Sequence record: MK327932.1
DNA: 64,000 nucleotides
DNA from: Escherichia phage vB_EcoM_G2248
Reading direction: 5' to 3' (one strand)
Position numbers and translations under genes: made by a program. The notes beneath the pieces are model-generated. The model ran no database searches, had not been told where the DNA came from, and was given only the letters and a program-made list of their open reading frames with translations. Below are positions 1 to 58,786 of this stretch, one piece after another (positions within the stretch are counted from its first letter, which is position 1; the number at the start of each line of letters is the position of its first letter).

Positions 1-442
1 CATGCATATCATCGGTGTATGTTAACTCAAGTTCCCCCAATTGTGAACACCAACAACCATAAAAGTTAAAAGTGCACACAATGTTACGTCGTTCGTTGTC
101 CATCATGTGAACTTGAACGGCTTCCGGCATTGAATCCTTCCACGCGGTGGAGTTACCGTTATTGTAGTCTACTATAGAAAGCATCCATGTGTAAAGGTTT
201 AGATAGCTTTCCAAATGCTCATCGACAATAAACCGGACTACCAACGGGTCAAACTCCACATGACTAGACGGATAATCAGCGACCGCCAAACCATATTGAC
301 CAGCAACTTGCTTAGTCGGTGGAATGGTTATAGCCGGAAGTGTAACACCTTGAGCATTTAAAGTAAAGCCTTTTGTTAGTTGTCCATCTGGAATATTGAT
401 CTGCCAGTTGCTGGGGTTAGCATAGTTAAAGAGATTAGACAT
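1..442 (-). CDS. putative gp3-like tail completion / sheath stabilizer protein, partial (C-terminus beyond window edge)
   Basis: ATG at 440-442 (minus) preceded by GAGGA; frame open to position 2 with no stop; lies beside gp2/gp4 as in T4 order 3-2-4-53-5; not in ORF track because truncated. Confidence 0.4.
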   Translation of the reverse strand, partial: MSNLFNYANPSNWQINIPDGQLTKGFTLNAQGVTLPAITIPPTKQVAGQYGLAVADYPSSHVEFDPLVVRFIVDEHLESYLNLYTWMLSIVDYNNGNSTAWKDSMPEAVQVHMMDNERRNIVCTFNFYGCWCSQLGELELTYTDDMH

Positions 443-518
443 TACTGATTCCTCAAATGAAAATATTTATTAACAATTGTCGCTTTGCGACGTGCCGGAG
501 GCACTGACTACTTTTTAA

Positions 519-562
519 CCGAAACAAATTTTTATTATTCTAAAGATCTTTCTTCGTTTTGG
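519..562. repeat. ~44-bp imperfect palindromic intergenic element, copy A (ccgaaacaaa..agatct..cttcgttttgg)
   Basis: arms are near reverse complements around central AGATCT; near-identical copy at 38916-38958 and half copy at 39075-39109. Confidence 0.6.
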
Positions 563-631
563 TTATGTTTTAACCAATAACTATATTTTTATACAGTAAT
601 AAATAAAACGGGTACTATACGAGGACTTCTT

Positions 632-886
632 ATGACAGAAGACATTTTGTTAAAACTCTATGATCGTCTGGATAACGAATTAGCAACATTGCGGGGTGAA
701 GTTCTCTATTTGTCTAAATGCAATACAGATCTGCTTAAGCAGATTGCAGAAAGGGATGACCAAATAAAATCCCTTTCAGGTGCATTACGTGATCGCGACA
801 AAGCATTAGAGATTTTACAGCGTGTTACCAATAAGGAAGAATTAAAAGACTTCTTACATGGTTATGCTCATGCCATCGATCTATAA
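632..886 (+). CDS. hypothetical 84-aa coiled-coil protein (accessory ORF)
   Basis: complete ORF with charged/Leu-rich heptad-like sequence; hairpin terminator immediately downstream; absent from canonical T4 order. Confidence 0.5.
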   Translation: MTEDILLKLYDRLDNELATLRGEVLYLSKCNTDLLKQIAERDDQIKSLSGALRDRDKALEILQRVTNKEELKDFLHGYAHAIDL

Positions 887-887
887 T

Positions 888-918
888 AAAAAAGCCCGTC
901 AATGACGGGCTTAATTTT
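888..918. terminator. bidirectional rho-independent terminator (GCCCGTC-aatg-GACGGGC)
   Basis: perfect 7-bp stem, A-run upstream and T-rich run downstream; between convergent ORFs. Confidence 0.6.
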
Positions 919-1946
919 TAATATGTATCAGCTAATTTAATTATGTTATCAAGTTCCGTTATTGGTAAAGTTTCTGTGTATCCATCTTTCAACATAGATT
1001 TATCAACAACGCCACATTGATAAGTTCTCTTTATTTCCTTTTCAAGTTCCCACGGAATCCAGCCATCAACACTTTGTTTGACGTAAACAAGTTTATGAAC
1101 AAACTTAGATTTCTGCATATGTTGTTTCATTCTGGTTTCCGGTAATTCATTGGTTACACCAAACTTTATAAATTTATCATCTAACGTCTGGATATAAAAA
1201 TATCCTATCTCAGATGGACGATAGCCAGAAGAACTACATTTCGGACACCCTTTAGCATTTCTGCTGAACGTACAATATCTTACGGAAAATTCGGCGTCAT
1301 GTTTTGTACATTTAAGTTTTATCCATGAATTTGCAGTACCTATCCATTCACCATCGACACCTATATATTCATACCCTAACTTTTTACATTTATCTTCTAT
1401 TCTAGATAGTGCATCTTCTACGGGAACGACATATTCCGTCTTAAATTGTTCAGCCGCACATTTCTTACAACCACATGTACCATGATTTTTAAAATCAAAG
1501 AACTTTGTATTCTTCCAAATATGGTCATGTTTCTTGCATCTAAGAATAATCTTAGTAATTTGTGATTTCCAGCCACCAACAAATCCCAAAAATTCATAAT
1601 CAAGATCTTTACATTTTTCTTCAATGAATTTGGTTGCTTCCTCTTCTGTCATAACTCCCCTACATTGAGGACAACCAACAATAACCTTTTTAGCATAGAA
1701 ACTATTACTGGAAACATCATAGACAGATCCATGCTTATTGCATTGGATAACAGATCTAGTCAATTTTCCTTTCCATTCTCCAGAAAATCCTAAGAATGTA
1801 TGGTCGACAAGTTTACACCTTTCAATAACTTTATCCGCAAATTCTCTAGGAGATTTTGTTACTTTGTTTACTCTGTATTCTATTTCTTCCGGTTGACGAA
1901 GATAATAAACGTGGGGATTGCTCCCCACGGAATTAATATTAAGCAT
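918..1946 (-). CDS. accessory protein with three tandem zinc-ribbon repeats and C-terminal GIY-YIG-like (T5orf172-type) domain; candidate freestanding homing-type nuclease
   Basis: three ~47-aa repeats (FLGFxGxW..C.KH..GCPxC); C-terminal GYFYIQ..KFGVTN..R..QH; longest ORF runs to 2048 but overlaps gp2, so ATG at 1944-1946 (AAGGAAGG upstream) preferred. Confidence 0.5.
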   Translation of the reverse strand: MLNINSVGSNPHVYYLRQPEEIEYRVNKVTKSPREFADKVIERCKLVDHTFLGFSGEWKGKLTRSVIQCNKHGSVYDVSSNSFYAKKVIVGCPQCRGVMTEEEATKFIEEKCKDLDYEFLGFVGGWKSQITKIILRCKKHDHIWKNTKFFDFKNHGTCGCKKCAAEQFKTEYVVPVEDALSRIEDKCKKLGYEYIGVDGEWIGTANSWIKLKCTKHDAEFSVRYCTFSRNAKGCPKCSSSGYRPSEIGYFYIQTLDDKFIKFGVTNELPETRMKQHMQKSKFVHKLVYVKQSVDGWIPWELEKEIKRTYQCGVVDKSMLKDGYTETLPITELDNIIKLADTY

Positions 1947-2760
1947 CCTTCCACACCTTCCTTGCATCATAGTTTTTACCTTTAGAAACAAATTTATATG
2001 TGTTAAGGTAGATAATATTGCTCCAGTCTTTCGGGCTAATCTCAACAAGTTTTGTTTTAATGTGTCCCGGTAGATATGCTTTGATCATGTGATCACTTCC
2101 ACGCATACCTTTTACATCGCTCCATTTGATTTTTAAGCGTGTTTTATTGCTCAAGGTAGGAGTAGATGCATATTGCTTTAAAAGTGCCTCTAAAAACTGC
2201 TGACGGGCTTTAGGAGTTACATAGTGTAAGTTAAGACCCAGCATCACAGTATTACCCGCCTTTGTCTTAGAATCACCCAGACAAATGATCAGCGGGAAAA
2301 CATCCCAATATGGCAAAGTGTCTTTATACTTAGCATCATACATAAAGGTATAGATTCGCCCTACTTGCGGTTTTACAATCTGGTGTCCCTTTATTCCAGC
2401 TTTTATTGTTTTAGTAAACCACTCCTGTGATTTTTCTTTAGGACGACTCTTTGATACAGCACGCATAGACGCACGAAAATCATTAATCATCATCATTGCG
2501 CGTTGCTGCTTATTGAGACCCTTTGCGCCTTTCCCTTTTAGTTTTTCAACTTCTATTGCTGTTTTAATTTCGCTGGCATAACGAGACATACTTTTAGTGA
2601 AAGTCGCATAGGCTATTCCCTTAGAATCTGCAAATGCTTTAGCTGTCATGCCTTTGGCTTTTGCTTTCGCAAATTCTACACCCAATTCGACCCACTGTTT
2701 AGACTTTCTTTTTTGGGGAGACGGCTTTTCGTCTTCTGTGATTATTTCAAATACGCTCAT
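1939..2760 (-). CDS. 2: gp2 DNA end-protector protein
   Basis: 273 aa (T4 gp2 ~274 aa), basic protein, position between the gene 3 region and gene 4. Confidence 0.6.
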   Translation of the reverse strand: MSVFEIITEDEKPSPQKRKSKQWVELGVEFAKAKAKGMTAKAFADSKGIAYATFTKSMSRYASEIKTAIEVEKLKGKGAKGLNKQQRAMMMINDFRASMRAVSKSRPKEKSQEWFTKTIKAGIKGHQIVKPQVGRIYTFMYDAKYKDTLPYWDVFPLIICLGDSKTKAGNTVMLGLNLHYVTPKARQQFLEALLKQYASTPTLSNKTRLKIKWSDVKGMRGSDHMIKAYLPGHIKTKLVEISPKDWSNIIYLNTYKFVSKGKNYDARKVWKDA

Positions 2761-2771
2761 AATATTATCCT

Positions 2772-3245
2772 CTATTTGTTAAGCCCTTTAAAGCCAAACA
2801 CTTTCTTTAATGCATGTTCGGTGATGATCTTAAACTCCATGTTATGCTTTTGGCATAATTTCACGGCAGCTAACCATTTTTCAGTATTTTTTGTGTATGT
2901 CCATACTTCATGCATATATCGTTGCTTTGTCTTCGCGGTCATTCTTTTTGGCTTTTCCGGTGGCCTTGTCTCTTTAGCTGGTTTAACTTCCCATAAATGC
3001 TCCTTGCCATCATCAAACTTAACGTAAAAATCCATAAAGTATCTGTGTCTTTTTCCGTCTGTTGATGACTCATAAGGAATTACTACGGTCTCAGATCCCC
3101 ATTTTGCAACTCTAGGATTGCGGTCTAGCCACTGCATGATCCATCTTTCCCAGCTTGAACGGTATGTGATCTTACGTATATCCCCTTTATACTTTTCCTT
3201 ATTCTCAGGAACATACTTGCCCTTATAAGTGTTAGATCCTCCCAT
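2772..3245 (-). CDS. 4: gp4 head completion protein
   Basis: 157 aa, divergent from gp53 as in T4; size and synteny. Confidence 0.6.
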   Translation of the reverse strand: MGGSNTYKGKYVPENKEKYKGDIRKITYRSSWERWIMQWLDRNPRVAKWGSETVVIPYESSTDGKRHRYFMDFYVKFDDGKEHLWEVKPAKETRPPEKPKRMTAKTKQRYMHEVWTYTKNTEKWLAAVKLCQKHNMEFKIITEHALKKVFGFKGLNK

Positions 3246-3260
3246 TTTAGCACCCTTTAT

Positions 3261-3268
3261 TATAAATA
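3261..3268 (+). promoter_or_regulatory. T4-type late promoter box TATAAATA upstream of gp53
   Basis: exact TATAAATA ~33 nt upstream of ATG 3301, inside a 12-bp inverted repeat (3245-3256 / 3289-3300). Confidence 0.6.
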
Positions 3269-3300
3269 CATAATACTATTTATCAATTGAGGGTGCTAAA

Positions 3301-3855
3301 ATGCTCTTTTCTTTCTTCCCTGCCATTGAATACAACGGCAAGATGATTACTGACATTGTGCGCAATTACCGCGCATATTTCAACGCAATAATTTCTGATT
3401 ATAACATACAAACATATTACATTCAAGGTAGTCCACGACCGGAACAAGTTGCATATGAAGTATACGGAAACCAACAACTTTATTGGATCTTGCTGATGCT
3501 TAATGACGTATACGATCCGTTCCATGACTGGATCACCGATCAAGAGACAGCATATGAATCAGCCGAACAACGATATGCAAACGTAGGAGGAAATCAAGTA
3601 TTATACCACGTTGATATTGACGGAAACAAGTATTGGAATCTTACCGAATATCCGAAAGGATCAAGCAATTGGTATGATAAAGGGGATATTCATCACCGTT
3701 ATTTGCAGTTTCAGGGTGCATTATCGGCAGTAGACACACTGGAAGATGCGATCCTCCGTAATGAGGAACGACGCAAGATCAAGATCATAGATCCTACACA
3801 AATTAAACAATTTATTAACGCATTCATTCGAGAAATGGAAAAGGCTGATGTGTAA
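3301..3855 (+). CDS. 53: gp53 baseplate wedge protein
   Basis: 184 aa directly upstream of gp5; synteny and size (T4 gp53 196 aa). Confidence 0.6.
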   Translation: MLFSFFPAIEYNGKMITDIVRNYRAYFNAIISDYNIQTYYIQGSPRPEQVAYEVYGNQQLYWILLMLNDVYDPFHDWITDQETAYESAEQRYANVGGNQVLYHVDIDGNKYWNLTEYPKGSSNWYDKGDIHHRYLQFQGALSAVDTLEDAILRNEERRKIKIIDPTQIKQFINAFIREMEKADV

Positions 3856-6534: not shown

Positions 6535-8435
6535 CAAAGCAAAAGATTACACAAATTCCTGATATTTTTAATGCTGCTACATTCGATGAAATTAAAAGCG
6601 CATTAACAGACTGGATGAGAAACCAGGAAGAATTTAAAGATTTTGATTTTAATGGTGCTGGTATTAACGTATTGATGGACTTGCTCGCATATAATACCCT
6701 TTATATTCAGCAATTTGCCAACGCCGCGCTATATGAATCTTTTATCAGAACGGCAATTAAGCGTAGTTCAGTTGTTCAAGCCGCGCAAGATTTAGGATAT
6801 TTGCCAGCAAGTAAAACTAGTGCATCAACTACAATTATGTTGCATGTATCACATCCACGAAATCCGGCAAGTATTCGAATCCCACGAGGAACTAAATTTA
6901 TTGCAAGTGTGGATCGCCAGACTTCTTACCCATTTGTGACTACAGAAGACGTTGTGAGCGTTTTAGGTTCAAATGGTTTATATACGCCTATGCTTAAAGT
7001 CGCACAAGGTCGTATTGTTCGTACAGAAATGTTATTTGATCCGAAGAAACAAATTCTGATCCGCGACCCTGATATTGACCGCGCTCAGGTTAAGTTGTGG
7101 GTAGATGGTGCTGAATGGAAAGACTGGACACGAGAAAGCATTGTTAACGCAACTGGCGCTAGTAATATTTTCTATATGCGTGAAACCGTAGACGGTCATA
7201 CAGAAATCTTCTTTGGTGAAGGTGAATCAACTTTATCTGCTGCTGGCGGGGCGCTGGAAGCAAATTATATTGGTGGACTTAAGCCGTCAACTGGTGCTAA
7301 TATTGTTATCGAATATATTAGCACTAAAGGCGCGGAAGCAAACGGTTCAGTTAATTTTACATATGCGGATACCCTTGCATCTATCTCTATTGTTAAAATT
7401 ATTGAGAATCCGACAAATGATCGTGATTATGTCGGTGCAGATGGTGGTGGTGATCCTGAATCAATCGAACGTATCCGTGAACTTGCTCCGGTAATGCGTG
7501 AATCTCAGCGTCGTTGTGTTACTGCTTCTGACTATGAGGCTTTTGTATCTAGCCGTTTTGGTAGTATTGTTCAGGCGGTACAATGTTTCACCGACCGAGA
7601 AAAACCGGGTTATGCTTTTGTTGCGGTTAAGCCTAAATCTGGCTTGCGCTTGACAACTGTTCAAAAAGAAGATATGCGGGATTATCTGGCAAAATATAAT
7701 CTTGCCCCTATCACGCCGAGCATCATTGACCCTAACTATCTGTATATTAAACAGAATATTAAAGTTTCCTATTCAATCAATGACTTGTCAGAATCAGAGC
7801 AGTGGTTGCGAGGTGCGGTTATTGATCAGATAGATGCATATTATACCGACGAAGTGGAAATTTTTAACCAGACCTTTAGTAAGTCTAAAATGCTTGCTCG
7901 TATTGACAAGGCTGACGTGTCTGTGATAGGTTCTAGTGCAGAAATAGAGATGGTACGAGAGATCGACAACTTCTATAAAGCACCTATGGCTGGAATCAAG
8001 TTCTTAAACCAATATAAGAGCGGAATCAAGTCTAGTTCGTTCAACTTCGAAAAGGACGGTAAACAATACCCGATCCATTATGTAAGTACAGAAATGAACA
8101 AAGAATCAGGTTTAGCTAAATTGCTGGTTGGACCTTTCCCTGTTGGTTCTACAATCGCTTTACCGCACTATTCCGGCACTGATTTTGATAAAGAGGTTAT
8201 CGACGGTGCGGACCTATACTTTGAGGTTGGAGAGGTTCAGCATTATGAAGACCTTATTTCATGGGATCTGGGTAAACTGAATATCAATAGCGATCGCTTT
8301 ACTGGTTCATATATTGAGTTGACAGCTAAACCGATTGCTGATAACATTTTTACTAAAGACGGTTCTTTGATCGTGTTTGAAAACGATCTCCGTCCTCAGT
8401 ACACAACTATTAGTCTGGAGGCAATTGCTCAATGA
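6531..8435 (+). CDS. 6: gp6 baseplate wedge protein
   Basis: 634 aa (T4 660 aa), synteny. Confidence 0.75.
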
Positions 8436-11400
8436 TTAAAGCGCCTAGTGTAACTAGCTTGACAATAGAAAAATTGTCTGCTAATCAGGCGTATATCACA
8501 TGGGATGACGTAGGCGAAAACTTCTTTTATTTTGTGGAGTTAGCCGAAACCAGAACACGAGACGGGGAGATCATCCCCGTCGATGAGTTAAGCTGGGTAA
8601 ACCTGGGATATACTGCCGACCAAAACTGGTTTGAGGACAAAAACCTTTTTCCAGAATATTATTACAAGTTTCGTGTAGCAGTAGCCGCAGAAGGATTTGA
8701 ACAAAGTAAATGGATTGAAACCGAAGAATTTCAGACATTTAAAACAAACGCATATAATTTTTCTATGATGCGAGAGTTCAACCTTGCAAACGAGTTTGTT
8801 AAGCAAAAGTTTACATATGATAATCGTGATTATATTAAATTCAATACTGATTTAATTCAAGCATCATTGATGCAGGAAGATTTTGTTTTCAGTCCTGAAT
8901 ATGCAAACATCACAAATATTTCTAACAAAATTATTGTTGATGAAAACTTTCATGAAATACAGGATCACATAGAAAAAGTTTGTATTGATATAAACCGCAC
9001 TATGTTAGCGGAAATGAACGGTGTTTTGTACCTTTTCGAACGGTTCCAGCCGATCGTGAAAGTGTCAAATGATAAAGGTCAATCATGGAAAGCATATAAA
9101 GCGTTTAACGACCGTGTAGGCAATCCGGTTTCCCGTACATGCGTTTATCAGTCTAAAACCACTACTTACGTTTTAGGATATGACCGAATCTTTTACGGAC
9201 GACAAGCTAGAGATACTCGATGGAGCGCGGACGATGTTCGATTTAGTGATGATACGATCACTTTTGCAAAGGTTGGTGACGAGAACGATTTAGGCTTTGA
9301 CGTTGAGGTCTTTGGTGTATTTTCCAGATTAACAGGGGACACCACAAAATACGCCGAAGCTATGGCATGTAGTGATGACTATTTGTGGGTTGGTGCTAAG
9401 GATGTTATTCGCCGGATTCGTCTTAAGAATACTCCTGTTGATACCGTACAGGGTTCGCCTACGTTTGGAGAAAAAATATTCGATCCTGATGTTATCCGAG
9501 TAACAGGAAATGATAAAGCTGTCATTCAGAAAATGGATGTGATCGACGGTAAATTGCTTGTATTTGTTACTGGTGAAGTTAAACAGCGTTATCAAGATCC
9601 GACTAAACCTGAAAACGTTGTCCCGTCAGACGATGCGGGTGTATACTTAATTGGGAGTGATGGTCTGTCTTTTCAGAGAGTATTTGGCAACACTCCGCAG
9701 GAAAGGGAATATATTCATCATGGGTTCAGTAATATGTCAACCAATGGTGATGAGGTGTTCATAAGCCATTATAATCATCATTTCGAAAGCATTTTACCTG
9801 ATCCAGAAACTGCCGCGAAATATGAATTAAGCGAAGCTGTAAAATATTCTCAGGAGCCAACTTATCTAACTGATAAGAAAATACATCAAACTACTTTCAG
9901 AGCAAGTTATGATGATTTGCGTATTTGGGAATTAGGACCGCAAGCGTATTATAATGAGGCTGATTATACATGGATGCGTCGAAACGGTGTTCGTGTATGG
10001 ATCACAAATGATAATCGCCCGTTGGTTGTTTATCCAGAAGTTGTCTATACGCAGGAAGTTGATACTTCCGGCATTCTTGATAAAAACAGAATTAACCGTG
10101 AAGTTTATGATAAAGGGACCGTGACCTGTTATCTTAACAATGTTAAATTTGAAGGATTCAAACAATATGCATCCGGTGTAATGTTCCATAAAAACACGGG
10201 GGAGATCATTGGGTTCTATCAATTTAACTATCGCGTTCGTGATCAGGTTGGTGTATATTGGAAACCTACAAATGTAGCATTTGTTGCTGAATTGCAAAAT
10301 CAGGTTCGGGAGGTTCCCTGGGTTCCGGTTCACTACGATCGAGAGCAAGATCCAGATTTGCGACCTTTACTGAATAAGATGACACCGGATAGCTTTTTAC
10401 TTGAGAACGAAAATTTCAGAAAATTCTCTGAATATTATCTGCAATTCTTAAGTGATGGTTCAGGAACATATTATAATAAACTAAAAAATCTGATTAAAAA
10501 CAAATATCCACGCGAGCAAGATGCATATGAGTATCTTTGGTCAGAGATGAACAAACGAAACATCTATGCAGATAAAAACAAGCGAGATGCGGTCGTAAGA
10601 TTCTTTGAATCCCGCAAATCAGATTTTTATTCCACTAAGGGCGTGGAGGCTTCTTACAAGTTCTTGTTTAAGTTACTTTATAATGAAGATGTGGAAATTG
10701 AGGTTGAATCACAAGCCGGACTAGAGTATGATATTGTTGTTAGTTCAACGAACATTGACGAGGATATCGTAGGTCGCACGATTTATACTCCAACCGGACG
10801 GGCTAACGTGACGTATCTTGAAAGGGAATATGAAGGTGGACGTCTACGCTGGCGAGTAACCATTCATAACCTGATCGGGCGGTTTGAAGAAGGTCAAGTG
10901 ATCAAATCAGAGAAAACAGCGTTTGAGGGGATGATCCTTGTTGGTGTACGTGGTAAAGAGTTGTTGAGTAGTTCAATCGACTATATCAACCGCTCACGAA
11001 GCCAATACACCATGAAGATTAAAAGTGCATTGCCAGTTTCGCGCTATGCAAATGATGTAATGCGATTCGTTCATCCTGTCGGCTTTGGGTTTATCGGTGT
11101 TACCCTGCTTACGATGTTCATTAACAGCGGGTTAAGTATGAGACACGTAGAAACTATAATTCAATCTCTGAAAAATTATAAGTTTGACAGCGGATTGCCT
11201 AGCGTGTATCCTGATCGTGTTGCTGATCTTGATGTTGATGGAAATATTAAGATTGACCCACTAACAGGGAAACCATTATACTTAACGTCACCGACAATTG
11301 GCGAAGAGTTCCCTGTTCCTCCTGAATATGATCAGGAGAACAGCGAATTGTTCCACGGACTTAAAGCAAGCGAACGAAGATTTGCAATGAGTCCACTGTT

Positions 11401-20635: not shown

Positions 20636-21568
20636 ATGTCAGGATATGTAACCAATAACCCAAGAGAATTAAAAGACGCTATTCTGCGTCGTTTAGGCGC
20701 ACCAGTAATTAACGTAGAAGTCACAGAAGACCAGATTTACGATTGTATTCAGAGAGCACTAGAACTCTATGGGGAATATCATTTCGATGGTGTGAATAAA
20801 GGATATAAAGTATTTCGTGTTAGTGCAGAGCAAGCGCAACACGGGGTATTTGATTTAAGCGATTCTGGAGTATTCGCAGTAACTAAAATAATTCGAACAA
20901 ACGTAGGTAGCGCGGCTACGATGGATGGTACTGCCGTTTATCCGTGGTTTACTGACTTTCTGTTGGGTTTAGCGGGTGTAAATGGCGGTTTAGGATCTGG
21001 CTGTAGTAAATTTTATGGTCCAAATGCAATGGGCGGTGATCTGGGATATTTCGAACAGCTTATGAGCTATCGCGCAACTATGCAAAACATGCTTAATCCT
21101 CTTCCCGATTACTGGTATAACAGCGCAAACGGACAACTTAAGATTACAGGAAATTTTCGAGAAGGTGATCTCATTGTTGTTGAATTATATGTTAAAAGCT
21201 ATGTAGATGTTCCTGATATGATCGGCGCGGTTGCTGGCTATGCCCATGCAGGAGGATGTTCTACCGCTGGCGGGATTAGTGCCGTTTATGATAACCCAAC
21301 CGCAGGATTGAGCGGTATTTCGGCAGGAATGGGACCAATTAGAGAAAACAAACAGGGCGCATATAATAACCGTTGGGTGAAAGATATGGCTACCGCTTTC
21401 ACTAAGGAGGTGTGGGGGTCCATCATGGCTAAACATCAAGGTCTGCAATTACCTGGCGGTGTCACTGTTGATGGTATCCGAATCATTGAAGAAGCACGCG
21501 CCGATATTGAGAAATTGCGACAAGAACTAGAATTATTAGATCCTCCGTTCGGCATCCTCATGATTTGA
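20636..21568 (+). CDS. 13: gp13 neck protein
   Basis: 310 aa (T4 309 aa), synteny. Confidence 0.75.
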
Positions 21569-21604
21569 TTTATTGGGGGAGTATTCCCCCATTTGGAGTA
21601 ACAT

Positions 21605-22345
21605 ATGTTTAACAACACTCTTTTTGCTCGCCTTGAATCGCAAAAGGATTATGAGAATACACGACAAACAGAGATTCTTAATCCTTATGTGAACTTTCAC
21701 AAATATACAAATACTCAGACGTTAGCCGACGTTATGGTCGCCGAAGCTATTCAGATGCGAGGTGTAGAATTATATTACATCCCTCGTGAATTTGTCAAAC
21801 CAGATATGATATTTGGTGAGGATGTTCAAAGCAAATTTACTAAAGCATGGAAATTTGCGGCTTATATTAACTCATTTGATGGGTATGAAGGAGCGGGTAA
21901 CTTCTTCTCTAGTTTCGGTTATCAAGCCAATGATGAACTAACTTTTACGGTTAACCCCAACCTATTCAAGCATCAAGTAGATGATCAAGAGCCAAAATCA
22001 GGTGACTTGATTTATATTCCAATGAGTAATGATTTATTTGAAATCTCATATGTAGAGCCATATCAGCCGTTTTTTCAGGCTGGCAAAAATGCCATGCGTA
22101 AAATTATTGCAGAGAAATTCGTGTATAGCGGCGAGGAATTGCGACCAGAATTACAACGCAATGAGGGAATTAATGTTGATGAGTTTGCGGATCTGGACCT
22201 TGCACCGATCACTAATCTGGACGGATTAACAGATATCAACTTAGAACAGTACAAAGAAGATAAGCAATTCAGAAGCGAAGGACAAGATTTTATTGACCCG
22301 TTTGATCCTATTAATGGCAAGGGTTCACCTTTTGCTAATTTTTGA
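21605..22345 (+). CDS. 14: gp14 neck protein
   Basis: 246 aa (T4 256 aa), synteny. Confidence 0.75.
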
Positions 22346-22371
22346 TAAATACTCATAAACAAGGGGGTCAA

Positions 22372-23205
22372 ATGTTCGGTTGGCACTATAATTCGTCAAT
22401 TAGACGGTATATTGTATTGCTGGGTAATTTATTCTCCGGCGTACAAATTAAAAGGGTGCGTAGTGACGGTGAGCGGTTTATTAAAGTTCCTATCACCTAC
22501 GCAAAGAAAGAAAAATTCATGATGACTCTGGACAAATATAACAATATCTCAAGTGAGGAAGACGTAGCAAAGGTAGAAACTATTTTACCGCGCATGTGTC
22601 TTTCTTTGATTGATATGACATACGCCCAGAACTTTAAAACCAATATTGCAAATAAGACAGTACCAAAATATACAGCGGATGGAATCAGGAGCGTAACACA
22701 ATATAATCCTGTACCATATAAGTTTACTTTCGAGTTAGGGATTTATACGCGTAACGAAGATGATATGTTTCAGATAATTGAACAGATTCTTCCTTACTTC
22801 CAGCCTCATTTTAACTGTAAGATTAAAGAACTACACGGTAATGATGTATGGATTGATCGAGATATTCAGGTCACAATTAGTTCTATTACTCCAGATGAAC
22901 AGGTAGGCGAAGATAAGTTTTCTCGTCGTCGTCTTGAGTGGACCATTATGTTTGAGTTCATCGGGTTTATCTATCCTCCAGCTACTGACGTTAAGGGGGA
23001 AATCAGAACGATTTATCTTGATTTTCATGCTAATTCTCGTGAATTAAATCCTAGCGGTAATTTTGAATCTGTGGATCACGAGGTCGTTAAACGTGATGTT
23101 GAGCAAGAAGAATGGGATGGAACAATCAAAGAATCATATTCTAGTGATATTCCAATACCAGTTGCACCGACTCCACCGGGTCCACGTATTGTAAGAGAAT
23201 TTTAA
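22372..23205 (+). CDS. 15: gp15 tail sheath stabilizer / tail terminator
   Basis: start at ATG 22372 (AAGGGGG RBS); N-terminus MFGWHYNSSIRRY resembles T4 gp15; ORF track starts 30 nt upstream at 22342. Confidence 0.75.
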   Translation: MFGWHYNSSIRRYIVLLGNLFSGVQIKRVRSDGERFIKVPITYAKKEKFMMTLDKYNNISSEEDVAKVETILPRMCLSLIDMTYAQNFKTNIANKTVPKYTADGIRSVTQYNPVPYKFTFELGIYTRNEDDMFQIIEQILPYFQPHFNCKIKELHGNDVWIDRDIQVTISSITPDEQVGEDKFSRRRLEWTIMFEFIGFIYPPATDVKGEIRTIYLDFHANSRELNPSGNFESVDHEVVKRDVEQEEWDGTIKESYSSDIPIPVAPTPPGPRIVREF

Positions 23206-23218
23206 GAGGTATTTTATT

Positions 23219-25539
<2,321 letters not shown>

Positions 25540-33743: not shown

Positions 33744-34052
33744 ATGCACACACTCATAAAGACCAAAACTCCAGCCGTTTCCGCACCCGTAAACTGTATT
33801 CATAGTTCTCACATGACCGTGCAAATGTCAGTTGAAGGGGTAAGGGAAGGGCAAAAAGTCATTGCGGAAGCCTTGTTAGAAGGTTCTCTAGATGGTAAAG
33901 GTTGGTTCACTATTTCAGAATTGAAAGCTGATGGTAATGAATATGCAACTGATGGTGGAGCGTTTGAAACATTATGGTCGTTTATTAGGGCAAATGTAAA
34001 ATCAGTATCTAATGATTCTACTGTAACGGTGTATCTTGCTAAACGGGGGTAA
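33744..34052 (+). CDS. hypothetical 102-aa protein (late accessory module gene 1)
   Basis: AAGGGGA RBS; no recognisable motif. Confidence 0.5.
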   Translation: MHTLIKTKTPAVSAPVNCIHSSHMTVQMSVEGVREGQKVIAEALLEGSLDGKGWFTISELKADGNEYATDGGAFETLWSFIRANVKSVSNDSTVTVYLAKRG

Positions 34053-34056
34053 TTAT

Positions 34057-35769
34057 ATGAAGCTAAATCCACAAGCTATCATTAGTGCTGGTTCCGTGAG
34101 TGGTGGTTGTTCTGGTGGTATTCAGATCGGGACTAACGTACCTAGCGGAATTAAAAATACCCATCGTTTCGAAAATGAAGAAGCGAGGGATACATATTTT
34201 ACCGAACATTTTCCAGAATTAGATAGACTAAAAACAATTATTGTTTGCGGTGCTAAACTTCAATTATGGACTGGTAATACAGCACAATCCCCGTATGATA
34301 ATTCTAAATGGGTCGATATGACCTGGGTGATTCAGGGCGAACAAGGTATTACTGGAGAGAAAGGCGAAAATGGACGTGGAATTGCTAGAATCGCAGCACA
34401 ATTATCTGACGATGATCGAAACTGGACTCTAGAAATTACATATACAGACTCAACGCAAGAATCTTTAGTATTTCCTGTTCCAGATGTATTAGCAAACTTC
34501 GTACAGCGTTTAAACGCAATCGAAGTAAAATGGACAACAACCAATCCAATCAACAATCTCGGGGTCGCTATATCACCCGGACGCTATCCGGTAGGTGATG
34601 CAACTTATGGAAAACCTCCAATGATGGCGAATAAGGGGTCCGCAGATGTATATGTCGTTGATGGTAGCGTTATTCAGGTGGTCCGTTCTGTTGATGGTGG
34701 CGTTTACACTCGTATCCGACACAATGGAGAATGGAGTGAATGGAACTCTCAAAACGATGGTGGAATTGGTGGCGGTGGTTTAACTGGTGATCAGGAAGCT
34801 ATGCTAACAAGTCTAAGCACTCGTTTACCGGAGACGTCACCAGAAATACTGGATTTAAACACTCTGACTAAACAAGGTCGCTTTTGTTATTTTGAAGGGA
34901 CCGCAAACCGTCCGAATGGAGCACAAGCACACGGTTCAGTAGACGTACATTCGTGTAAAAACTATGTGTTACAGATTGCAACCAGTGTAGAAGGGGTAAT
35001 GTATCATCGCTCATACACAAAGAAAACTGATTCATGGTCCGAATGGACACAGATCAGCGATCATACTGGAGGGGCGACAATATATGAGTTCCCTCGTGTG
35101 TCTAGTGTGTTCACGACCGCACAAAGTTTAATCGAGGCAACAACACCGGGTACTGGAGGCGGGGCATTTTATATTCCGTGGAAATATGTCATTCATGATA
35201 ACTATGGGTGTACACCACGGATATCAGAGCCAGTTAGACAGAACGATGCCGATCATTGGTGGGTGTGTCCGAAATATGGAAGTTATGACATGGAATTGAT
35301 TTTTGATGTTGGTTTTATTAAAACACCACAAACAATTCCTCCTATCTTTACAATCACGGTATGGCATCGATTAACCGACGGTCGAGAACAACAAGCAGCA
35401 CGTTATCAGATTGGATTAGATGTATCACAAAAAAACCAAACATCAAAATCGCTAAAATTGAGAATGACTCACATTACATCGGGAGAGATGTTCCGGTGGC
35501 ATGTTTCATTTAATGGTGGTAGTTGGTCGGCAAGCGATAACCCAGATGTTTCCCTTGTACCATTCCGAACATTGCTGATGGTCGATGAAGTGGAACACGA
35601 TTCAGCAAAACGAATTGGTTCGTTAGCATACAACACATGGGCGAATTTTCAAGCTAGAAAAGGTCTGGCGGCGACTGTAAGTGAAGACGAATTAAAAAAA
35701 GCTCGTCTTAATGCCGTTAAATGGAGCGCATCAATCGAAAGTGTTGATGCATCTCAGGACGACCAATAA
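34057..35769 (+). CDS. hypothetical 570-aa fibre-like protein with short collagen-like Gly-X-Y stretch
   Basis: start at ATG 34057 (GGGGG RBS; ORF track starts at 34036); GEQGITGEKGENGRG collagen-like triplets and GGIGGGG linker. Confidence 0.55.
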   Translation: MKLNPQAIISAGSVSGGCSGGIQIGTNVPSGIKNTHRFENEEARDTYFTEHFPELDRLKTIIVCGAKLQLWTGNTAQSPYDNSKWVDMTWVIQGEQGITGEKGENGRGIARIAAQLSDDDRNWTLEITYTDSTQESLVFPVPDVLANFVQRLNAIEVKWTTTNPINNLGVAISPGRYPVGDATYGKPPMMANKGSADVYVVDGSVIQVVRSVDGGVYTRIRHNGEWSEWNSQNDGGIGGGGLTGDQEAMLTSLSTRLPETSPEILDLNTLTKQGRFCYFEGTANRPNGAQAHGSVDVHSCKNYVLQIATSVEGVMYHRSYTKKTDSWSEWTQISDHTGGATIYEFPRVSSVFTTAQSLIEATTPGTGGGAFYIPWKYVIHDNYGCTPRISEPVRQNDADHWWVCPKYGSYDMELIFDVGFIKTPQTIPPIFTITVWHRLTDGREQQAARYQIGLDVSQKNQTSKSLKLRMTHITSGEMFRWHVSFNGGSWSASDNPDVSLVPFRTLLMVDEVEHDSAKRIGSLAYNTWANFQARKGLAATVSEDELKKARLNAVKWSASIESVDASQDDQ

Positions 35770-35783
35770 TTAGCGGGGGGTGA

Positions 35784-36716
35784 TTGATGACTGACATTAA
35801 GGCAAAAATTAGCCAGTTGCAAACTGATTTTGTTCAAGGCGAGATCACACATTTCACCGGAAACGAATCAAATGCTCTAATGGAAAGTGATGTTGAAAGA
35901 ATTTCAAATTCAATCAACACTCAATTAATTGATCCTGTAATTGATTTTGTTATTGCTTGTGATGAAGTAATAGCAGAAACAGCAAGCGAGGCACATCAAG
36001 CGGCAGAAGTAGCAAAAAATACTGCTGACGTGGCAGACCGAACGGCAGGTCAATCCATGAGTATGGCAACTGATGCAATTGCTAAAGCTACTACCGCTGA
36101 ATCAGAAGCAACACGAGCACACACCCGATTAGATGAACTGAATATTCCAACAATGCCTAATCTTGATAACCAGACATGGAACTGGCTATCAAGATCTTTT
36201 GATAGTGTCAGTATTAGAGTTGGTAATGGTGTAACATTAGCTGACTCTAATACTAAACCACATATCACATGGACACCAATTCGCCAAAACTTTGAAACAG
36301 GTAGCTATTACGTTGAAGGACGTTTTGAAGCTCGTTTTAAAGTAATGGTTCGAGATTGGATTCAGGGCGAAGGTGGTAATATTGTTTATCTGGCAGGAAT
36401 TGATAGTTTAGCGTCATTTAACGGTTGGATTTATCTGGATGGTTTATCATCTACGGATACGATGAAAACAACCAATATTCAGATTAACGCATACACACAA
36501 AAAGACTCGCAAGTAGTATTTGGCGCTAGTGCTGTTGCGTCTATGTCAGATTCAACAAAAGTTAAAATGGCGTTATTCGTAAACGTAGGAACAGATAGAT
36601 TTGATCAATATACAGATCCGGTCTATGTCGACCTTGTTATGACATTCCAGCGTGACGCTAGCGGTAATTTTGGTTTTGGTACGTTGTTCCCAGAATTAAC
36701 CCCATCTTCTTCATAA
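35784..36716 (+). CDS. hypothetical 310-aa protein, N-terminal helical / C-terminal beta-rich (possible fibre tip or adhesin)
   Basis: complete ORF, tightly linked downstream of the fibre-like gene. Confidence 0.5.
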   Translation: MMTDIKAKISQLQTDFVQGEITHFTGNESNALMESDVERISNSINTQLIDPVIDFVIACDEVIAETASEAHQAAEVAKNTADVADRTAGQSMSMATDAIAKATTAESEATRAHTRLDELNIPTMPNLDNQTWNWLSRSFDSVSIRVGNGVTLADSNTKPHITWTPIRQNFETGSYYVEGRFEARFKVMVRDWIQGEGGNIVYLAGIDSLASFNGWIYLDGLSSTDTMKTTNIQINAYTQKDSQVVFGASAVASMSDSTKVKMALFVNVGTDRFDQYTDPVYVDLVMTFQRDASGNFGFGTLFPELTPSSS

Positions 36717-38794: not shown

Positions 38795-38915
38795 AATATT
38801 TTCCTCCATAGAAAGCAGTATCATATTACAAGTTAATAACAAATACAAGTATCCGCGTAGCGGAAGCGAGCACAGCGAGCATTAAAACACTTCCAGTAAC
38901 TGATTAATAAATGTT

Positions 38916-38958
38916 CGAAACAAATTTTTATTATTCTATAAGATAAGTCTTCGTTTTG
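38916..38958. repeat. ~44-bp imperfect palindromic intergenic element, copy B
   Basis: cgaaacaaatttttattattctataagataagtcttcgttttg; near-identical to copy A (519-562). Confidence 0.6.
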
Positions 38959-39074: not shown

Positions 39075-39109
39075 ATTTTCTATGTTCTAAAGATCTTTCT
39101 TCGTTTTGG
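39075..39109. repeat. palindromic element copy C (right half conserved: ttctaaagatctttcttcgttttgg)
   Basis: matches right arm plus ~20 nt of flanking sequence of copies A and B. Confidence 0.5.
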
Positions 39110-39175
39110 TCACAATTTAATCAAACAGTATTAATATTGTCCACATGTAAACTAAATCATGATGATTTGTGGATA

Positions 39176-40363: not shown

Positions 40364-41593
40364 TTAAAGTGGCGGAGCTTCGCGTATACGAAGAACTCTT
40401 TCTAGTGTCTCTCGATCTAAGTGATGGAATTTGCTTGCATTGTAGCTATAACCATTTCTGGATTCCATACAAATACAATCGCCGTATTTTTCCTCTGCTG
40501 CCGCGATCGTCTCCAGGTCTTTGGCATATCGACTACGGGAATATACTTCTCTGTGTCTCCATTCTAAGTTTAACTCATTGAATTTAACAATCTCGTCAAA
40601 TACCCACCAGCCAATATAGATAAACGACGTTCTACGCCACGGAAGCGGATGGACATAACGGAACATAGTATGAAGAGACTCGACTATGTTCATCTGGCAT
40701 TTGGTACTGATTACAAATCCTACCTCAACACGAGTTCCGTCAATGGTTTGAAAGAGTTTAGCTATACACCAGAAAGTAGCATGATCGTCCTGTGTCGCTC
40801 TTTCTTTGTATAGTGTGCCGTTAGGTAAAATTGAAAATCCCTCTGATATCTCTCCTATGGTGTTTCCTAATAATACCTTATCTTGTCCTTCTCGTTGTAG
40901 ATACCAGTTGTATTGGATGGATAGCGGTGGCATATCGCTATTATCGCCTACAATGTCCTCTGACACAAAATACTGCAATATGATTGGATAACCTATTGCT
41001 ACGGTGTTATCTGCGTTCACATCGCGATCTACGCTCATTTTAGCGAGCATTACCTTAGAAGATGTTTTGTCGATTGAGTTTTCCGATTCACCCCAGACCG
41101 AGACAGTATACACCCCGTTATCGTCATCGCTAAATTCGTGTATTGTTAATGTGTCGCTTGTGTTGTCTAATACTCGACCGTCTTTCTCCCAGCGATAATG
41201 GAGAGTATATGTGTCTGACGGTGATTTTCCTGTGGAGTAACTAACCGTTGTTCGTAGGTCAACATCGGTTTTTGTCTGTACATAGAAATGAGTAGGTTCT
41301 GTTATTTTTACAACTAGTTCGGCCTCATCCATCCGCACCGCGTTACTGGTTGCTTCGTCTCCTGTGTCGGTATCGCGCACGGTTACTTTGTAAGACCCTG
41401 CATTTTCACTTGTTGCGTCAGAAATAGTTAACGTGTTAGTGTCGCCTTCTTGCGATTTATCGTCTTTTGTCCATGTATATGTTAGATTGCTTGGTGCAGG
41501 GTCATCCCCAGAATCCAAAGTCACCGTTAATGTGAACGTGTCACCAGCGAGAAAACATCTTTTATCCGATTTTAATTTAACGGTAAATGCCAT
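40364..41593 (-). CDS. hoc: Hoc-like capsid decoration protein, ~3 Ig-like domains
   Basis: Ig-type periodicity (YxWxKDG.., GxYxCxV); C-terminal YVHPLPWRRTSFIYIGWWVFDEI segment shared with neighbouring paralog. Confidence 0.7.
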   Translation of the reverse strand: MAFTVKLKSDKRCFLAGDTFTLTVTLDSGDDPAPSNLTYTWTKDDKSQEGDTNTLTISDATSENAGSYKVTVRDTDTGDEATSNAVRMDEAELVVKITEPTHFYVQTKTDVDLRTTVSYSTGKSPSDTYTLHYRWEKDGRVLDNTSDTLTIHEFSDDDNGVYTVSVWGESENSIDKTSSKVMLAKMSVDRDVNADNTVAIGYPIILQYFVSEDIVGDNSDMPPLSIQYNWYLQREGQDKVLLGNTIGEISEGFSILPNGTLYKERATQDDHATFWCIAKLFQTIDGTRVEVGFVISTKCQMNIVESLHTMFRYVHPLPWRRTSFIYIGWWVFDEIVKFNELNLEWRHREVYSRSRYAKDLETIAAAEEKYGDCICMESRNGYSYNASKFHHLDRETLERVLRIREAPPL

Positions 41594-41611
41594 ATAATAC
41601 TACTCCATATA

Positions 41612-41642
41612 ACAAAGACCGACCCGAAGGCCGGTCTAACTA
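41612..41642 (-). terminator. rho-independent terminator (minus strand) after large hoc-like gene
   Basis: reverse complement: AGACCG-gccttcgggt-CGGTCT then TTGTT. Confidence 0.5.
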
Positions 41643-41644
41643 TT

Positions 41645-58290: not shown

Positions 58291-58503
58291 TTATAATGCA
58301 CCAGCAAGCAATTGCTCTAAGGTGTATCCTGAATAGTCTTTTTCAATCAGGGTATATTTTCCTACTCGTTTAATCCAGCCACGCATTTCAACGTATTCTG
58401 CGTAGTTGATGGTACGAGTTGTTCCATCTTCTAGCAAAGCAGTACCGATTTCGTTAATGCGGTCATAAGTTACGTCGGTAATGATGATTTCGATGTTAGC
58501 CAT
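58291..58503 (-). CDS. hypothetical 70-aa early protein
   Basis: behind early promoter cassette; starts MANIE- like gene 60385-60636. Confidence 0.5.
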   Translation of the reverse strand: MANIEIIITDVTYDRINEIGTALLEDGTTRTINYAEYVEMRGWIKRVGKYTLIEKDYSGYTLEQLLAGAL

Positions 58504-58539
58504 TTGATACTCCTTAGTAGTTCGTTTCGGTATGGGTGT

Positions 58540-58568: not shown

Positions 58569-58581
58569 CAACTTTTAGAAC

Positions 58582-58755: not shown

Positions 58756-58786
58756 TTTGATTCTCCTTTCGTTTCGGTATGTGTGC

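What the first reader, a model, noticed from the sequence alone, without database searches (positions are those of the whole stretch)
450..2048. Insertion between gene 3 and gene 2: zinc-ribbon-repeat protein with GIY-YIG-like domain plus divergent coiled-coil ORF
Between the probable gp3 gene (1-442, minus) and gp2 (1939-2760, minus) lie a palindromic repeat element, an 84-aa coiled-coil ORF on the opposite strand, a bidirectional terminator, and a ~340-aa protein with three tandem ~47-aa zinc-ribbon repeats and a C-terminal GYFYIQ..KFGVTN..R..H segment resembling the GIY-YIG/T5orf172 nuclease core. Freestanding homing endonucleases commonly sit between conserved T4 genes, but this domain order (zinc ribbons N-terminal, GIY-YIG-like C-terminal) is the reverse of T4 Seg proteins, and the start overlaps the gp2 stop.
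Basis: partly seen in the sequence, partly recalled or inferred. Interest (0 to 1): 0.7.

Follow-up and report, generated by a model that had tools for sequence, protein, structure and literature searches.

The report
Freestanding homing endonuclease gene after gene 2
A selfish nuclease gene of an already described phage family (zinc-ribbon DNA-binding repeats followed by a GIY-YIG/T5orf172-type nuclease) sits just after gene 2 in this RB49-like coliphage and in only about one in six of its relatives, so it is an ordinary mobile homing-endonuclease gene, not a new kind of system.

Summary
The window is a Krischvirus, an RB49-like T4-type coliphage. Compared with RB49, the insert is 1022 bp (window ~916-1937). 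It holds one gene (918-1946, minus strand, 342 aa) lying between the gp2 stop codon and the gp2 terminator. The 84-aa ORF, the small hairpins and the bidirectional terminator occur in all Krischviruses.

The protein has three tandem CapR-homology zinc-ribbon repeats. Their period is 64-72 aa, not 47. A 100-aa C-terminal domain follows. Its predicted fold (pLDDT 96) best matches GIY-YIG nucleases, and homologues hit Pfam MUG113 and T5orf172. The expected Tyr, Arg and Glu positions are invariant.

The gene is present in 8 of roughly 50 Krischvirus genomes. It is always linked to a sharply bounded, recoded stretch covering the last ~23 codons of gp2. That pattern is a typical homing or co-conversion footprint.

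This domain order is already published as the standard architecture of ICP1 and T5-type T5orf172 homing endonucleases, and RefSeq already labels the gene "endonuclease".

Minor points of interest: two alleles differ mainly in zinc-ribbon repeats 2-3, each with its own gp2 patch, and a terminator-like hairpin sits inside codons 6-12.

Verdict: a new member of a known kind, of low to moderate interest.

The parts
1..442 (-). gp3 (tail completion / tube terminator), N-terminal 147 codons. A flanking resident late gene.
   Evidence: phrog_45 at E=2e-36 and Pfam gp19-like. Annotated as gp3 in RB49, Phi1 and ECD7.
479..504 (.). Two adjacent 13-nt hairpins (GTCGC-TTT-GCGAC and GTGCC-GGA-GGCAC). It is resident sequence, not part of the insert.
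   Evidence: Sequence and predicted fold. Unique in the window. Conserved in RB49.
632..886 (+). Homologue of RB49 ORF130: a conserved 84-aa Krischvirus gene of unknown function, probably coiled-coil. Not part of the insert.
   Evidence: phrog_17832 at E=2e-57, full length. Present in RB49, Phi1, Makalu_002, phiS, Cognac, MIZ4, kvi and L008. 16 synonymous vs 7 non-synonymous codon differences to L008. A late-promoter-like AATAAATA at 598 and a GAGGA Shine-Dalgarno sequence.
892..912 (.). Bidirectional intrinsic terminator. It is the resident gp2/ORF130 terminator and now lies downstream of the endonuclease gene.
   Evidence: 9-bp stem, 3-nt loop, T-runs on both strands. Lies directly after the gp2 stop codon in RB49.
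916..1937 (-). The 1022-bp insertion relative to RB49-type genomes. The boundaries are ambiguous by ~11 nt because ATTAA-type sequence occurs at both junctions.
   Evidence: blastn against RB49, Makalu_002 and phiS. Junction sequences.
918..1946 (-). Homing-endonuclease-type gene, 342 aa. The ATG and the GGAAGG Shine-Dalgarno sequence lie in the gp2 3' end and already exist in empty sites.
   Evidence: ORF. phrog_681 'endonuclease' at E=1e-78. Annotated 'endonuclease' in Phi1 and ECD7 and 'putative GIY-YIG nuclease family protein' in Skers.
921..1217 (-). C-terminal nuclease domain (residues 244-342), GIY-YIG superfamily, T5orf172/MUG113 type. Invariant residues: Y251, K261, G263, R272, E302, D321, G322, T324, E325.
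1218..1847 (-). Three tandem CapR-homology zinc-ribbon repeats: repeat 3 at 1218-1442, repeat 2 at 1443-1655, repeat 1 at 1656-1847. This is the presumed sequence-specific DNA-binding array.
   Evidence: Pfam PF21817 at 56.5 bits against a cut-off of 24.2, plus a weak DUF723 hit. Self-alignment. Invariant Cys residues.
1910..1929 (-). GC-rich hairpin CGTGGGGAGCAATCCCCACG followed by TTTATTAT, inside codons 6-12 of the endonuclease gene. It looks like a terminator or attenuator. It corresponds to a 13-residue N-terminal insertion absent from other family members.
   Evidence: Terminator scan. RNA fold, z = -2.7. The stem is kept and the loop changed in L008. The insertion is visible in alignment A1. 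AF2 pLDDT is 29 for residues 1-10.
1942..2008 (-). Recoded patch in the last ~23 codons of gp2, linked to the endonuclease gene. It is the probable target-site or co-conversion region.
   Evidence: 22 mismatches to RB49 in the first 100 aligned nt, then 0-2 per 50 nt. The patch is 100% identical in all window-type carrier phages and ~76% identical in 38 endonuclease-free records. 14 of the last 27 codons differ, against 6 of the remaining 246.
1939..2760 (-). gp2 (DNA end protector). A resident late gene whose 3' end supplies the endonuclease gene's start codon.
   Evidence: phrog_429 at E=3e-71. Annotations.

Best explanation
The gene at 918-1946 (-) is a freestanding homing-endonuclease gene of the CapR-zinc-ribbon + T5orf172 (GIY-YIG superfamily) family. 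It has inserted between the gp2 stop codon and the gp2 terminator of a Krischvirus.

What is shown:
- The domain composition of the protein.
- Its presence/absence polymorphism at one exact site.
- Its linkage to a sharply bounded recoded stretch at the gp2 3' end.
- Purifying selection on the nuclease domain.

What is inferred:
- In a mixed infection, the three zinc-ribbon repeats bind an extended sequence in or near the gp2 3' end of an endonuclease-free (RB49-type) genome.
- The C-terminal nuclease then cuts nearby.
- Recombinational repair from the carrier genome copies the gene, together with the adjacent ~65 nt of gp2, into the cut genome. The recoded patch makes carrier genomes immune to cutting.
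- The gene has no promoter of its own. It is transcribed with the late gp4-gp2 message and translated from an ATG overlapping the gp2 stop codon (ATGCTTAA).
- The hairpin plus U-tract at codons 6-12 probably terminates or attenuates most transcripts, keeping nuclease levels low.
For: Family and fold:
- Pfam CapR at E=3e-15, in three stretches, and phrog_681 'endonuclease' at E=1e-78.
- 11 of 20 homologues hit MUG113 and 6 of 20 hit T5orf172. Salmonella homologues are named 'GIY-YIG nuclease family protein'.
- The AF2 model of the C-terminal domain (pLDDT 96, beta-beta-alpha-beta-alpha order) best matches Slx1/HIGLE GIY-YIG nucleases. Other GIY-YIG domains are also hit, including I-TevI, UvrC and Eco29kI.
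- The Y251-F262-R272 spacing of 11 and 10 residues is identical to I-TevI Y6-Y17-R27. The I-TevI sequence was verified against 1MK0/1LN0.
- The nuclease domain shows 22 synonymous vs 3 non-synonymous codon changes.

Mobility:
- The gene is in 10 records, which is 8 phages, of 58 Krischvirus records, plus one metagenomic contig.
- Empty sites are clean.
- The recoded gp2 patch is 100% linked to the window-type gene.
- Recombinant endonuclease-free genomes carry all of the patch (MIZ4, MIZ5) or part of it (kvi).

Precedent:
- A T5orf172 domain is a proven nuclease in ICP1 Odn, where E180A abolishes cleavage (PMC8263062).
- The CapR domain binds DNA through its Cys residues (PMC8096241).
- Repeated zinc-finger arrays followed by T5orf172 are the described architecture of this family (PMC10448857).
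Against: - No cleavage, homing or target site has been shown for this protein or for any close relative.
- The window protein itself does not reach any Pfam GIY-YIG-clan model. hhalign to I-TevI is not significant.
- The second motif Tyr ('YIG') is Phe262.
- The recoded gp2 patch also occurs without the gene (MIZ4, MIZ5, kvi). It could therefore be an older gp2 allele into which the gene inserted, rather than a co-conversion tract.
- The role of the hairpin is purely inferred.
Confidence: 0.75

Rival explanations
1. A domesticated nuclease used by the phage as a weapon. It would target a satellite, a competing phage or host DNA, like ICP1 Odn, rather than act as a selfish homing element. Its sporadic distribution would then reflect niche-specific benefit.
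For: - The T5orf172 nuclease Odn is such a case (PMC8263062).
- Domains associated with homing endonucleases take part in phage-satellite conflicts (PMC10448857).
- The nuclease domain is under purifying selection.
- The two alleles differ mainly in the DNA-binding repeats, as expected if specificity is under diversifying pressure.
Against: - The gene always sits at one site, tightly linked to a recoded flank of an essential gene. That is the signature of homing, not of a cargo gene.
- No satellite-like or foreign target is known.
- Marker exclusion of related phages is itself a normal consequence of homing.
Confidence: 0.1
2. A decaying or catalytically dead remnant that now acts only as a DNA-binding protein, for example a regulator like the satellite protein CapR.
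For: - CapR is a domesticated DNA-binding fragment of this family (PMC8096241).
- The second motif Tyr is Phe.
- The protein has no direct Pfam nuclease hit of its own.
Against: - The full-length ORF is intact in all 8 phages and in L008.
- Y251, R272, E302 and DGYTE are invariant.
- The nuclease domain is the most conserved part, at 97-98% aa identity between alleles, with 22 synonymous vs 3 non-synonymous changes.
Confidence: 0.05
3. The gene arrived, and is lost, by ordinary recombination at hairpin or terminator sequences, as in the modular shuffling proposed for PeSLs (promoter-plus-stem-loop cassettes) in RB49/Phi1. Its own nuclease would play no part in its spread.
For: - The gene body is flanked by two terminator-like units of the form ATTAA-hairpin-TTTATTAT.
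- The upstream unit aligns to the empty site better than any of 500 shuffles does: score 29 against a mean of 8.5 and a maximum of 21.
- Recombination between stem-loop cassettes is documented in these phages (PMC2839356).
- kvi and MIZ4 show crossovers inside the patch.
Against: - The flanking units share little sequence beyond ATTAA and the T-tract.
- No sigma-70 PeSL promoter adjoins the gene.
- This does not explain the strong conservation of an intact nuclease domain.
- It is compatible with homing, which also proceeds by recombination.
Confidence: 0.1

Closest known systems
ICP1 / T5-type T5orf172 homing endonucleases with N-terminal CapR, DUF723 or DUF4379 zinc-finger repeats (e.g. ICP1 Gp165, Gp174, Gp121; Netter 2021 PMC8096241; Barth, Dunham & Seed 2023 PMC10448857)
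   Same: - The same domain order: repeated zinc-ribbon DNA-binding modules, then a C-terminal T5orf172-type nuclease.
- The same 'beads on a string' repeat organisation.
- Located next to an essential structural or packaging gene.
- Alleles differ by exchange of the DNA-binding repeats, as that paper describes.
   Different: - The host phage is a T4-type Krischvirus. The paper notes that T4 itself has no T5orf172 genes.
- Sequence identity to anything outside Krischvirus is at most 35%.
- The N-terminus reads through a terminator-like hairpin.
- Its own C-terminal domain is too divergent to hit the Pfam T5orf172 model directly.
ICP1 Odn (Gp88), a T5orf172 nuclease (PMC8263062)
   Same: A T5orf172-type C-terminal nuclease with conserved Arg and Glu. 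It is the experimental proof that this domain cleaves DNA where the N-terminal domain binds.
   Different: Odn has a RepA_N DNA-binding domain and is an anti-satellite weapon. The present gene has CapR repeats and shows a homing footprint.
T4 Seg proteins and I-TevI (canonical GIY-YIG homing endonucleases)
   Same: - Freestanding or intron-borne genes lying between conserved T4-type genes.
- The same catalytic fold superfamily.
- Localised co-conversion or recoding of the flanking essential gene.
- Expression from upstream transcripts with RNA-structure control.
   Different: - The domain order is opposite: in Seg proteins and I-TevI the nuclease is N-terminal.
- The DNA-binding modules differ.
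- There is no detectable sequence similarity.
- The 'YIG' Tyr is replaced by Phe.
PLE CapR (satellite-encoded repressor)
   Same: Shares the CapR-homology zinc-ribbon DNA-binding domain (Pfam PF21817).
   Different: CapR is a single domain without a nuclease. Here there are three repeats plus an intact nuclease domain.

Membership tests
CapR homology domain (Pfam PF21817) | A profile match above Pfam's gathering score. | tested here: met
   56.5 bits against a cut-off of 24.2, E=3e-15, multiple stretches. All 20 aligned homologues match.
CapR homology domain (Pfam PF21817) | Two conserved Cys-containing pairs that form a zinc site (a CxxC ... CxC-like motif in PMC8096241). | tested here: met
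   Each repeat has C-x2-H ... GC-x2-C. C69, C92, C95, C137 and C237 are invariant; C160, C163, C213 and C234 are at least 90% conserved. Metal binding itself was not tested.
GIY-YIG superfamily (T5orf172 PF10544 / MUG113 PF13455 branch) | A direct profile match of the window protein to a clan member. | tested here: not met
   No GIY-YIG, T5orf172 or MUG113 hit at E<=1 for the window protein. The link is met only transitively: 11 of 20 aligned homologues hit MUG113 (best 5e-7) and 6 of 20 hit T5orf172 (best 8e-7).
GIY-YIG superfamily (T5orf172 PF10544 / MUG113 PF13455 branch) | The beta-beta-alpha-beta-alpha core fold. | tested here: met
GIY-YIG superfamily (T5orf172 PF10544 / MUG113 PF13455 branch) | A first motif Tyr ('GIY') in strand 1, a catalytic Arg in helix 1 and a catalytic Glu in helix 2. 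| tested here: met
   Y251, R272 and E302 are invariant in 20 and in 17 sequences. The spacing Y-11-F-10-R equals that of I-TevI Y6, Y17 and R27. The assignment of E302 rests on the order of secondary-structure elements, not on a residue-level superposition.
GIY-YIG superfamily (T5orf172 PF10544 / MUG113 PF13455 branch) | A second motif Tyr ('YIG') in strand 2. | tested here: not met
   The position is Phe262 (motif KFG) in at least 90% of the family. PMC8263062 includes an atypical GIY-YIG domain in its alignment to show that alternative residues can occur at core motif positions.
Freestanding homing endonuclease gene (functional class) | Presence/absence polymorphism at one precise intergenic site among close relatives. 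| tested here: met
   Present in 8 phages and absent from the rest of 58 records. Empty sites are clean.
Freestanding homing endonuclease gene (functional class) | Localised sequence divergence or co-conversion of the flank next to the gene. | tested here: met
   In the patch, 14 of 27 codons differ. In the rest of gp2, 6 of 246 differ. The boundary is sharp at ~2008.
Freestanding homing endonuclease gene (functional class) | The enzyme cleaves the gene-free allele and not its own, and the gene is over-transmitted in crosses. | not testable with these tools
   This needs a nuclease assay and phage crosses.
T4 Seg family (SegA-G) | An N-terminal canonical GIY-YIG domain (PF01541) followed by a C-terminal DNA-binding region. 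| tested here: not met
   The nuclease domain is C-terminal and there is no PF01541 hit. This gene is not a Seg protein.

The most novel reading that the evidence does not exclude
The two natural alleles of this gene are the window/ECD7 type and the Phi1/L008 type. Their nuclease domains are 97-98% identical and repeat 1 is 95% identical between the window and Phi1 alleles (81% to the more diverged L008). Zinc-ribbon repeats 2-3 are only 56-61% identical. Each allele is linked to its own recoded version of the gp2 3' end.

If repeats 2-3 read exactly that gp2 stretch, this would be a compact natural example of a homing endonuclease and its target co-diversifying through module exchange. That would amount to a readable 'code' for CapR-type zinc ribbons.

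In addition, the first 16 codons appear to be a recruited copy of the gp2 terminator, which now gates expression of the nuclease.
Probability: 0.3. Interest if true: 0.45.

Novelty: new member of a known kind. Interest (0 to 1): 0.25.

Why it matters
It adds a T4-type (Krischvirus) example to the CapR/T5orf172 homing-endonuclease family, which has so far been described mainly in ICP1, T5-like and Aeromonas or Vibrio phages. It explains a local mosaic in the essential gene 2 of phages used for therapy. The locus is also experimentally convenient. Carrier phages, endonuclease-free phages and endonuclease-free phages that carry the recoded patch are all in culture collections, so homing, target recognition by zinc-ribbon arrays and marker exclusion could be tested directly. 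It does not reveal a new mechanism.

Tried and rejected
- **Foldseek, full-length model against PDB.** Only meaningless low-TM hits, because the inter-domain geometry is undefined (pTM 0.36). Replaced by a model of the single domain.
- **hhalign of the C-terminal profile against I-TevI residues 1-92.** Not significant.
- **NCBIfam.** No match.
- **afdb50 fold library.** Not available.
- **Second copy of the gene in the window.** None found by tblastn.
- **Association of distant relatives with gp2.** Among 29 viral loci, only ECD7 has gp2 next to the gene. The gp2 association is specific to Krischvirus.
- **'The gene is more conserved than its flanks in ELT3.'** Rejected. ELT3's lower overall identity comes from a separate mosaic patch in gp4.
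- **The 479-504 hairpins as a repeated element.** Rejected.
- **A sigma-70 promoter for the gene.** None better than chance.
- **Literature on this specific gene.** None found. Phi1 ORF130.1 is not discussed by name in PMC2839356, and a search for Krischvirus plus endonuclease gave nothing specific.
Full report
**Identity of the window.** The first 3.3 kb match Krischvirus genomes (RB49-like T4-type coliphages) at 93-99% identity. The best matches are FL37, FL38 and ECD7. The local gene order is:
- gp3 at 1-442 (-)
- an 84-aa ORF at 632-886 (+)
- a 342-aa ORF at 918-1946 (-)
- gp2 at 1939-2760 (-)
- gp4 at 2772-3245 (-)
- gp53 and gp5 on the plus strand

**Checking the observation.** All the described features exist.
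- The terminator at 892-912 is a 9-bp stem with T-runs on both strands.
- The long ORF most plausibly starts at the ATG at 1946-1944. This ATG is preceded by GGAAGG and overlaps the gp2 TAA in ATGCTTAA.
- The protein contains three tandem repeats (residues 34-97, 98-168, 169-243). They are 29-34% identical to one another, with invariant C..C-K-H..GC-x2-C. The period is therefore 64-72 aa, not 47.
- The 'palindromic element' is two adjacent 13-nt hairpins at 479-504. They occur once in the window.

**What is inserted and what is resident.** Alignment with RB49 shows that window 1-915 and 1927-3400 are collinear with RB49 at 98% identity. A 1022-bp segment is extra.
- In RB49 the gp2 stop codon is followed directly by the terminator: GGATGCATAACATTAAGCCCGTCAATGACGGGC.
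- In the window the extra DNA lies between ATTAA and GCCCGTC.
- The 84-aa ORF (RB49 ORF130, phrog_17832), the hairpins and the terminator are present in every Krischvirus examined, whether or not it has the insert. They are not part of the mobile unit.
- ORF130 looks like a real gene. It shows 16 synonymous vs 7 non-synonymous codon differences to a contig that is ~83-85% identical in nucleotide sequence.
- ORF130 has an AATAAATA motif 34 nt upstream of its ATG. The same motif precedes gp3.

**The protein.**
- Pfam finds the CapR homology domain at 56.5 bits (cut-off 24.2), with weak DUF723 and zinc-ribbon hits.
- PHROGs places it in phrog_681 'endonuclease' at E=1e-78.
- The window protein gives no direct hit to GIY-YIG, T5orf172 or MUG113.
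- Its homologues do. These are 23-35% identical over most of the length and include prophage genes of Salmonella named 'GIY-YIG nuclease family protein'. Of 20 aligned homologues, 11 hit MUG113 and 6 hit T5orf172.
- In alignments of 20 full-length and 17 C-terminal sequences, the invariant residues are Y251, K261, G263, R272, E302, D321, G322, T324 and E325.
- An AlphaFold model of residues 243-342 is confident (pLDDT 95.9) and has beta-beta-alpha-beta-alpha order.
- Against predicted viral structures there are 87 hits at E<=1e-3, with TM up to 0.95. Their names include 'CapR homology domain-containing protein', 'GIY-YIG domain-containing protein', 'Homing endonuclease' and 'Bacteriophage T5 Orf172 DNA-binding domain-containing protein'. 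Two belong to other Krischviruses, kaaroe and JEP8, and are of different lengths (414 and 541 aa).
- The spacing Y251-(11)-F262-(10)-R272 equals that of I-TevI Y6-Y17-R27. My recalled I-TevI sequence was checked against 1MK0 and 1LN0.
- E302 sits in the helix after strand 3, where I-TevI E75 lies. This assignment is by order of structural elements, not by superposition.
- The second motif Tyr is Phe.
- hhalign to I-TevI alone is not significant.

**Evidence for mobility.**
- The gene is found in 10 records, which represent 8 phages: ELT3, ECD7, Skers, Cognac, FL37, FL38, pEJ01 and Phi1. This is out of 58 Krischvirus records. It is also in one metagenomic contig, L008.
- It is always at the same site.
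- The gp2 sequence next to the insert differs from RB49 at 22 of the first 100 aligned positions, then at 0-2 per 50 nt. That is 14 of the last 27 codons, against 6 of the other 246.
- An 80-nt probe of this patch is 100% identical in all window-type carriers and ~76% identical in 38 endonuclease-free records.
- Three endonuclease-free phages (MIZ4, MIZ5, kvi) carry the patch at 96-99% identity. In kvi it is shorter, showing a crossover inside it.
- This is the pattern expected from homing with co-conversion, followed by occasional loss of the gene or recombination. It is also compatible with insertion into a pre-existing gp2 allele.
- The nuclease domain is under purifying selection: 22 synonymous vs 3 non-synonymous codon differences to L008.

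**Two alleles.** Phi1 and L008 carry a variant of the gene. Compared with the window allele:
- the nuclease domain is 97-98% identical in amino-acid sequence;
- repeat 1 is 95% identical in Phi1 and 81% in the more diverged L008;
- repeats 2 and 3 are only 55-61% identical (57-80% in nucleotide sequence).

Each allele has its own version of the gp2 patch. This fits the domain shuffling described for this family (PMC10448857). It also suggests, but does not show, that repeats 2-3 read the gp2 3' end.

**Expression.**
- No sigma-70 promoter better than chance lies near the gene. No TATAAATA or AATAAATA lies on the minus strand inside gp2.
- Co-transcription with gp4-gp2 and translation from the overlapping ATG are therefore the simplest reading (inference).
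- Codons 6-12 form the hairpin CGTGGGGAGCAATCCCCACG followed by TTTATTAT, which the terminator scan flags (fold z = -2.7).
- These residues are a 13-residue insertion relative to other family members. They are predicted to be disordered.
- In L008 the core 6-bp GTGGGG/CCCCAC stem is kept, the outer C-G pair is lost, and the loop changes (SN to RD).
- The first ~50 nt of the gene align to the empty-site gp2-terminator sequence better than any of 500 shuffles: score 29 against a mean of 8.5 and a maximum of 21. Part of this score comes from the shared gp2 end.
- I infer that a diverged copy of the gp2 terminator has been recruited as the N-terminal leader and limits expression. This is untested.

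**Comparison with what is known.**
- The CapR domain was defined from the PLE satellite repressor CapR and the N-termini of ICP1 T5orf172 endonucleases. Its Cys residues are needed for DNA binding (PMC8096241).
- Barth, Dunham and Seed (PMC10448857) showed that 87% of 229 T5orf172 homing endonucleases carry CapR, DUF723 or DUF4379 zinc fingers, often repeated ('beads on a string'). They also showed that these genes sit next to essential genes and exchange DNA-binding modules.
- A T5orf172 domain is a proven nuclease in Odn, where E180A inactivates it (PMC8263062).
- The 'reversed' domain order is therefore the norm for this family.
- A profile of the family finds 36,544 cluster representatives at E<=1e-3 and 1,737 at E<=1e-30.
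- RefSeq already labels the Phi1 and ECD7 genes 'endonuclease', and Skers labels its copy a 'putative GIY-YIG nuclease family protein'.
- I found no paper dealing with this particular gene.

**Verdict.** This is an ordinary freestanding homing-endonuclease gene of a known family, newly placed in a T4-type genus, with a clear population-level footprint. Membership of the protein family is near certain. Active homing into the gp2 3' end is likely but unproven. Interest is low to moderate.

Noticed in passing
window 33753-36607: A ~2.7-kb cassette lies between gp23 and gp24. It has three ORFs of 102, 577 and 310 aa. The 577-aa one has a collagen-like GxxGxx stretch, and both larger ones give weak tail-fibre hits. 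RB49, Phi1 and ECD7 lack it. It is present at only ~82% nt identity in SSG23, SFHK24, Brandy and UPWr_E1.
   Followed up: partly
window 40364-44185 (-): Two adjacent Hoc-like Ig-repeat genes (409 aa and 846 aa) stand where RB49 has a single hoc gene.
   Followed up: partly
window 58500-62500: A family of ~65-75-nt repeats. Read on the minus strand, each is TTGACA, a GGGG/CCCC stem-loop, a -10 box and then ACCGAAACGAA. These are the PeSL cassettes (early promoter plus stem-loop) described for RB49 and Phi1 (PMC2839356).
   Followed up: no
window 503-584, with copies at 38899-38938 and 39075-39131: The intergenic sequence upstream of the 84-aa ORF is predicted to form a long hairpin. It recurs at 79-80% identity twice near the hoc region (repeat families D7 and D10). 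Its function is unknown.
   Followed up: no
window 2775-2785 and locus L003 2165-3187, L005 3186-4208: Makalu_002 and Cognac carry a ~340-aa HNH homing endonuclease on the opposite strand between gp2 and gp4. Next to that site, gp4 (window 2801-3200) is a mosaic patch, only 58-85% identical to ELT3.
   Followed up: partly
window ~474 and locus L004 774-1307: Phage phiS has a third, different endonuclease gene (177 aa). It is inserted just upstream of gp3, beside the twin hairpins. The gp3-gp4 interval is therefore a hotspot with three independent insertion sites.
   Followed up: partly
locus L010 21640-22224 and 24324-27140 (ECD7), window 21568-25536: ECD7 has segC between gp13 and gp14, and an enlarged 938-aa gp17 annotation. 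The window lacks both; its gp17 is 607 aa.
   Followed up: no
loci L011-L013 (Salmonella enterica contigs), gene at 8001-9083: The closest non-Krischvirus homologues with names (360 aa, ~29% identity) lie in Salmonella prophages. They sit near a lambda-type GpA terminase and a Rha-family gene, close to the prophage end.
   Followed up: partly
window 471-464 (-), 598-605 (+): gp3, the 84-aa ORF and at least one more gene start (minus-strand copy at 45046) are preceded by AATAAATA. The canonical T4 late-promoter box TATAAATA occurs 9 times on the plus strand; the copies checked (3261, 14072, 25532) lie 35-40 nt upstream of the gp53, gp9 and gp18 start codons.
   Followed up: partly
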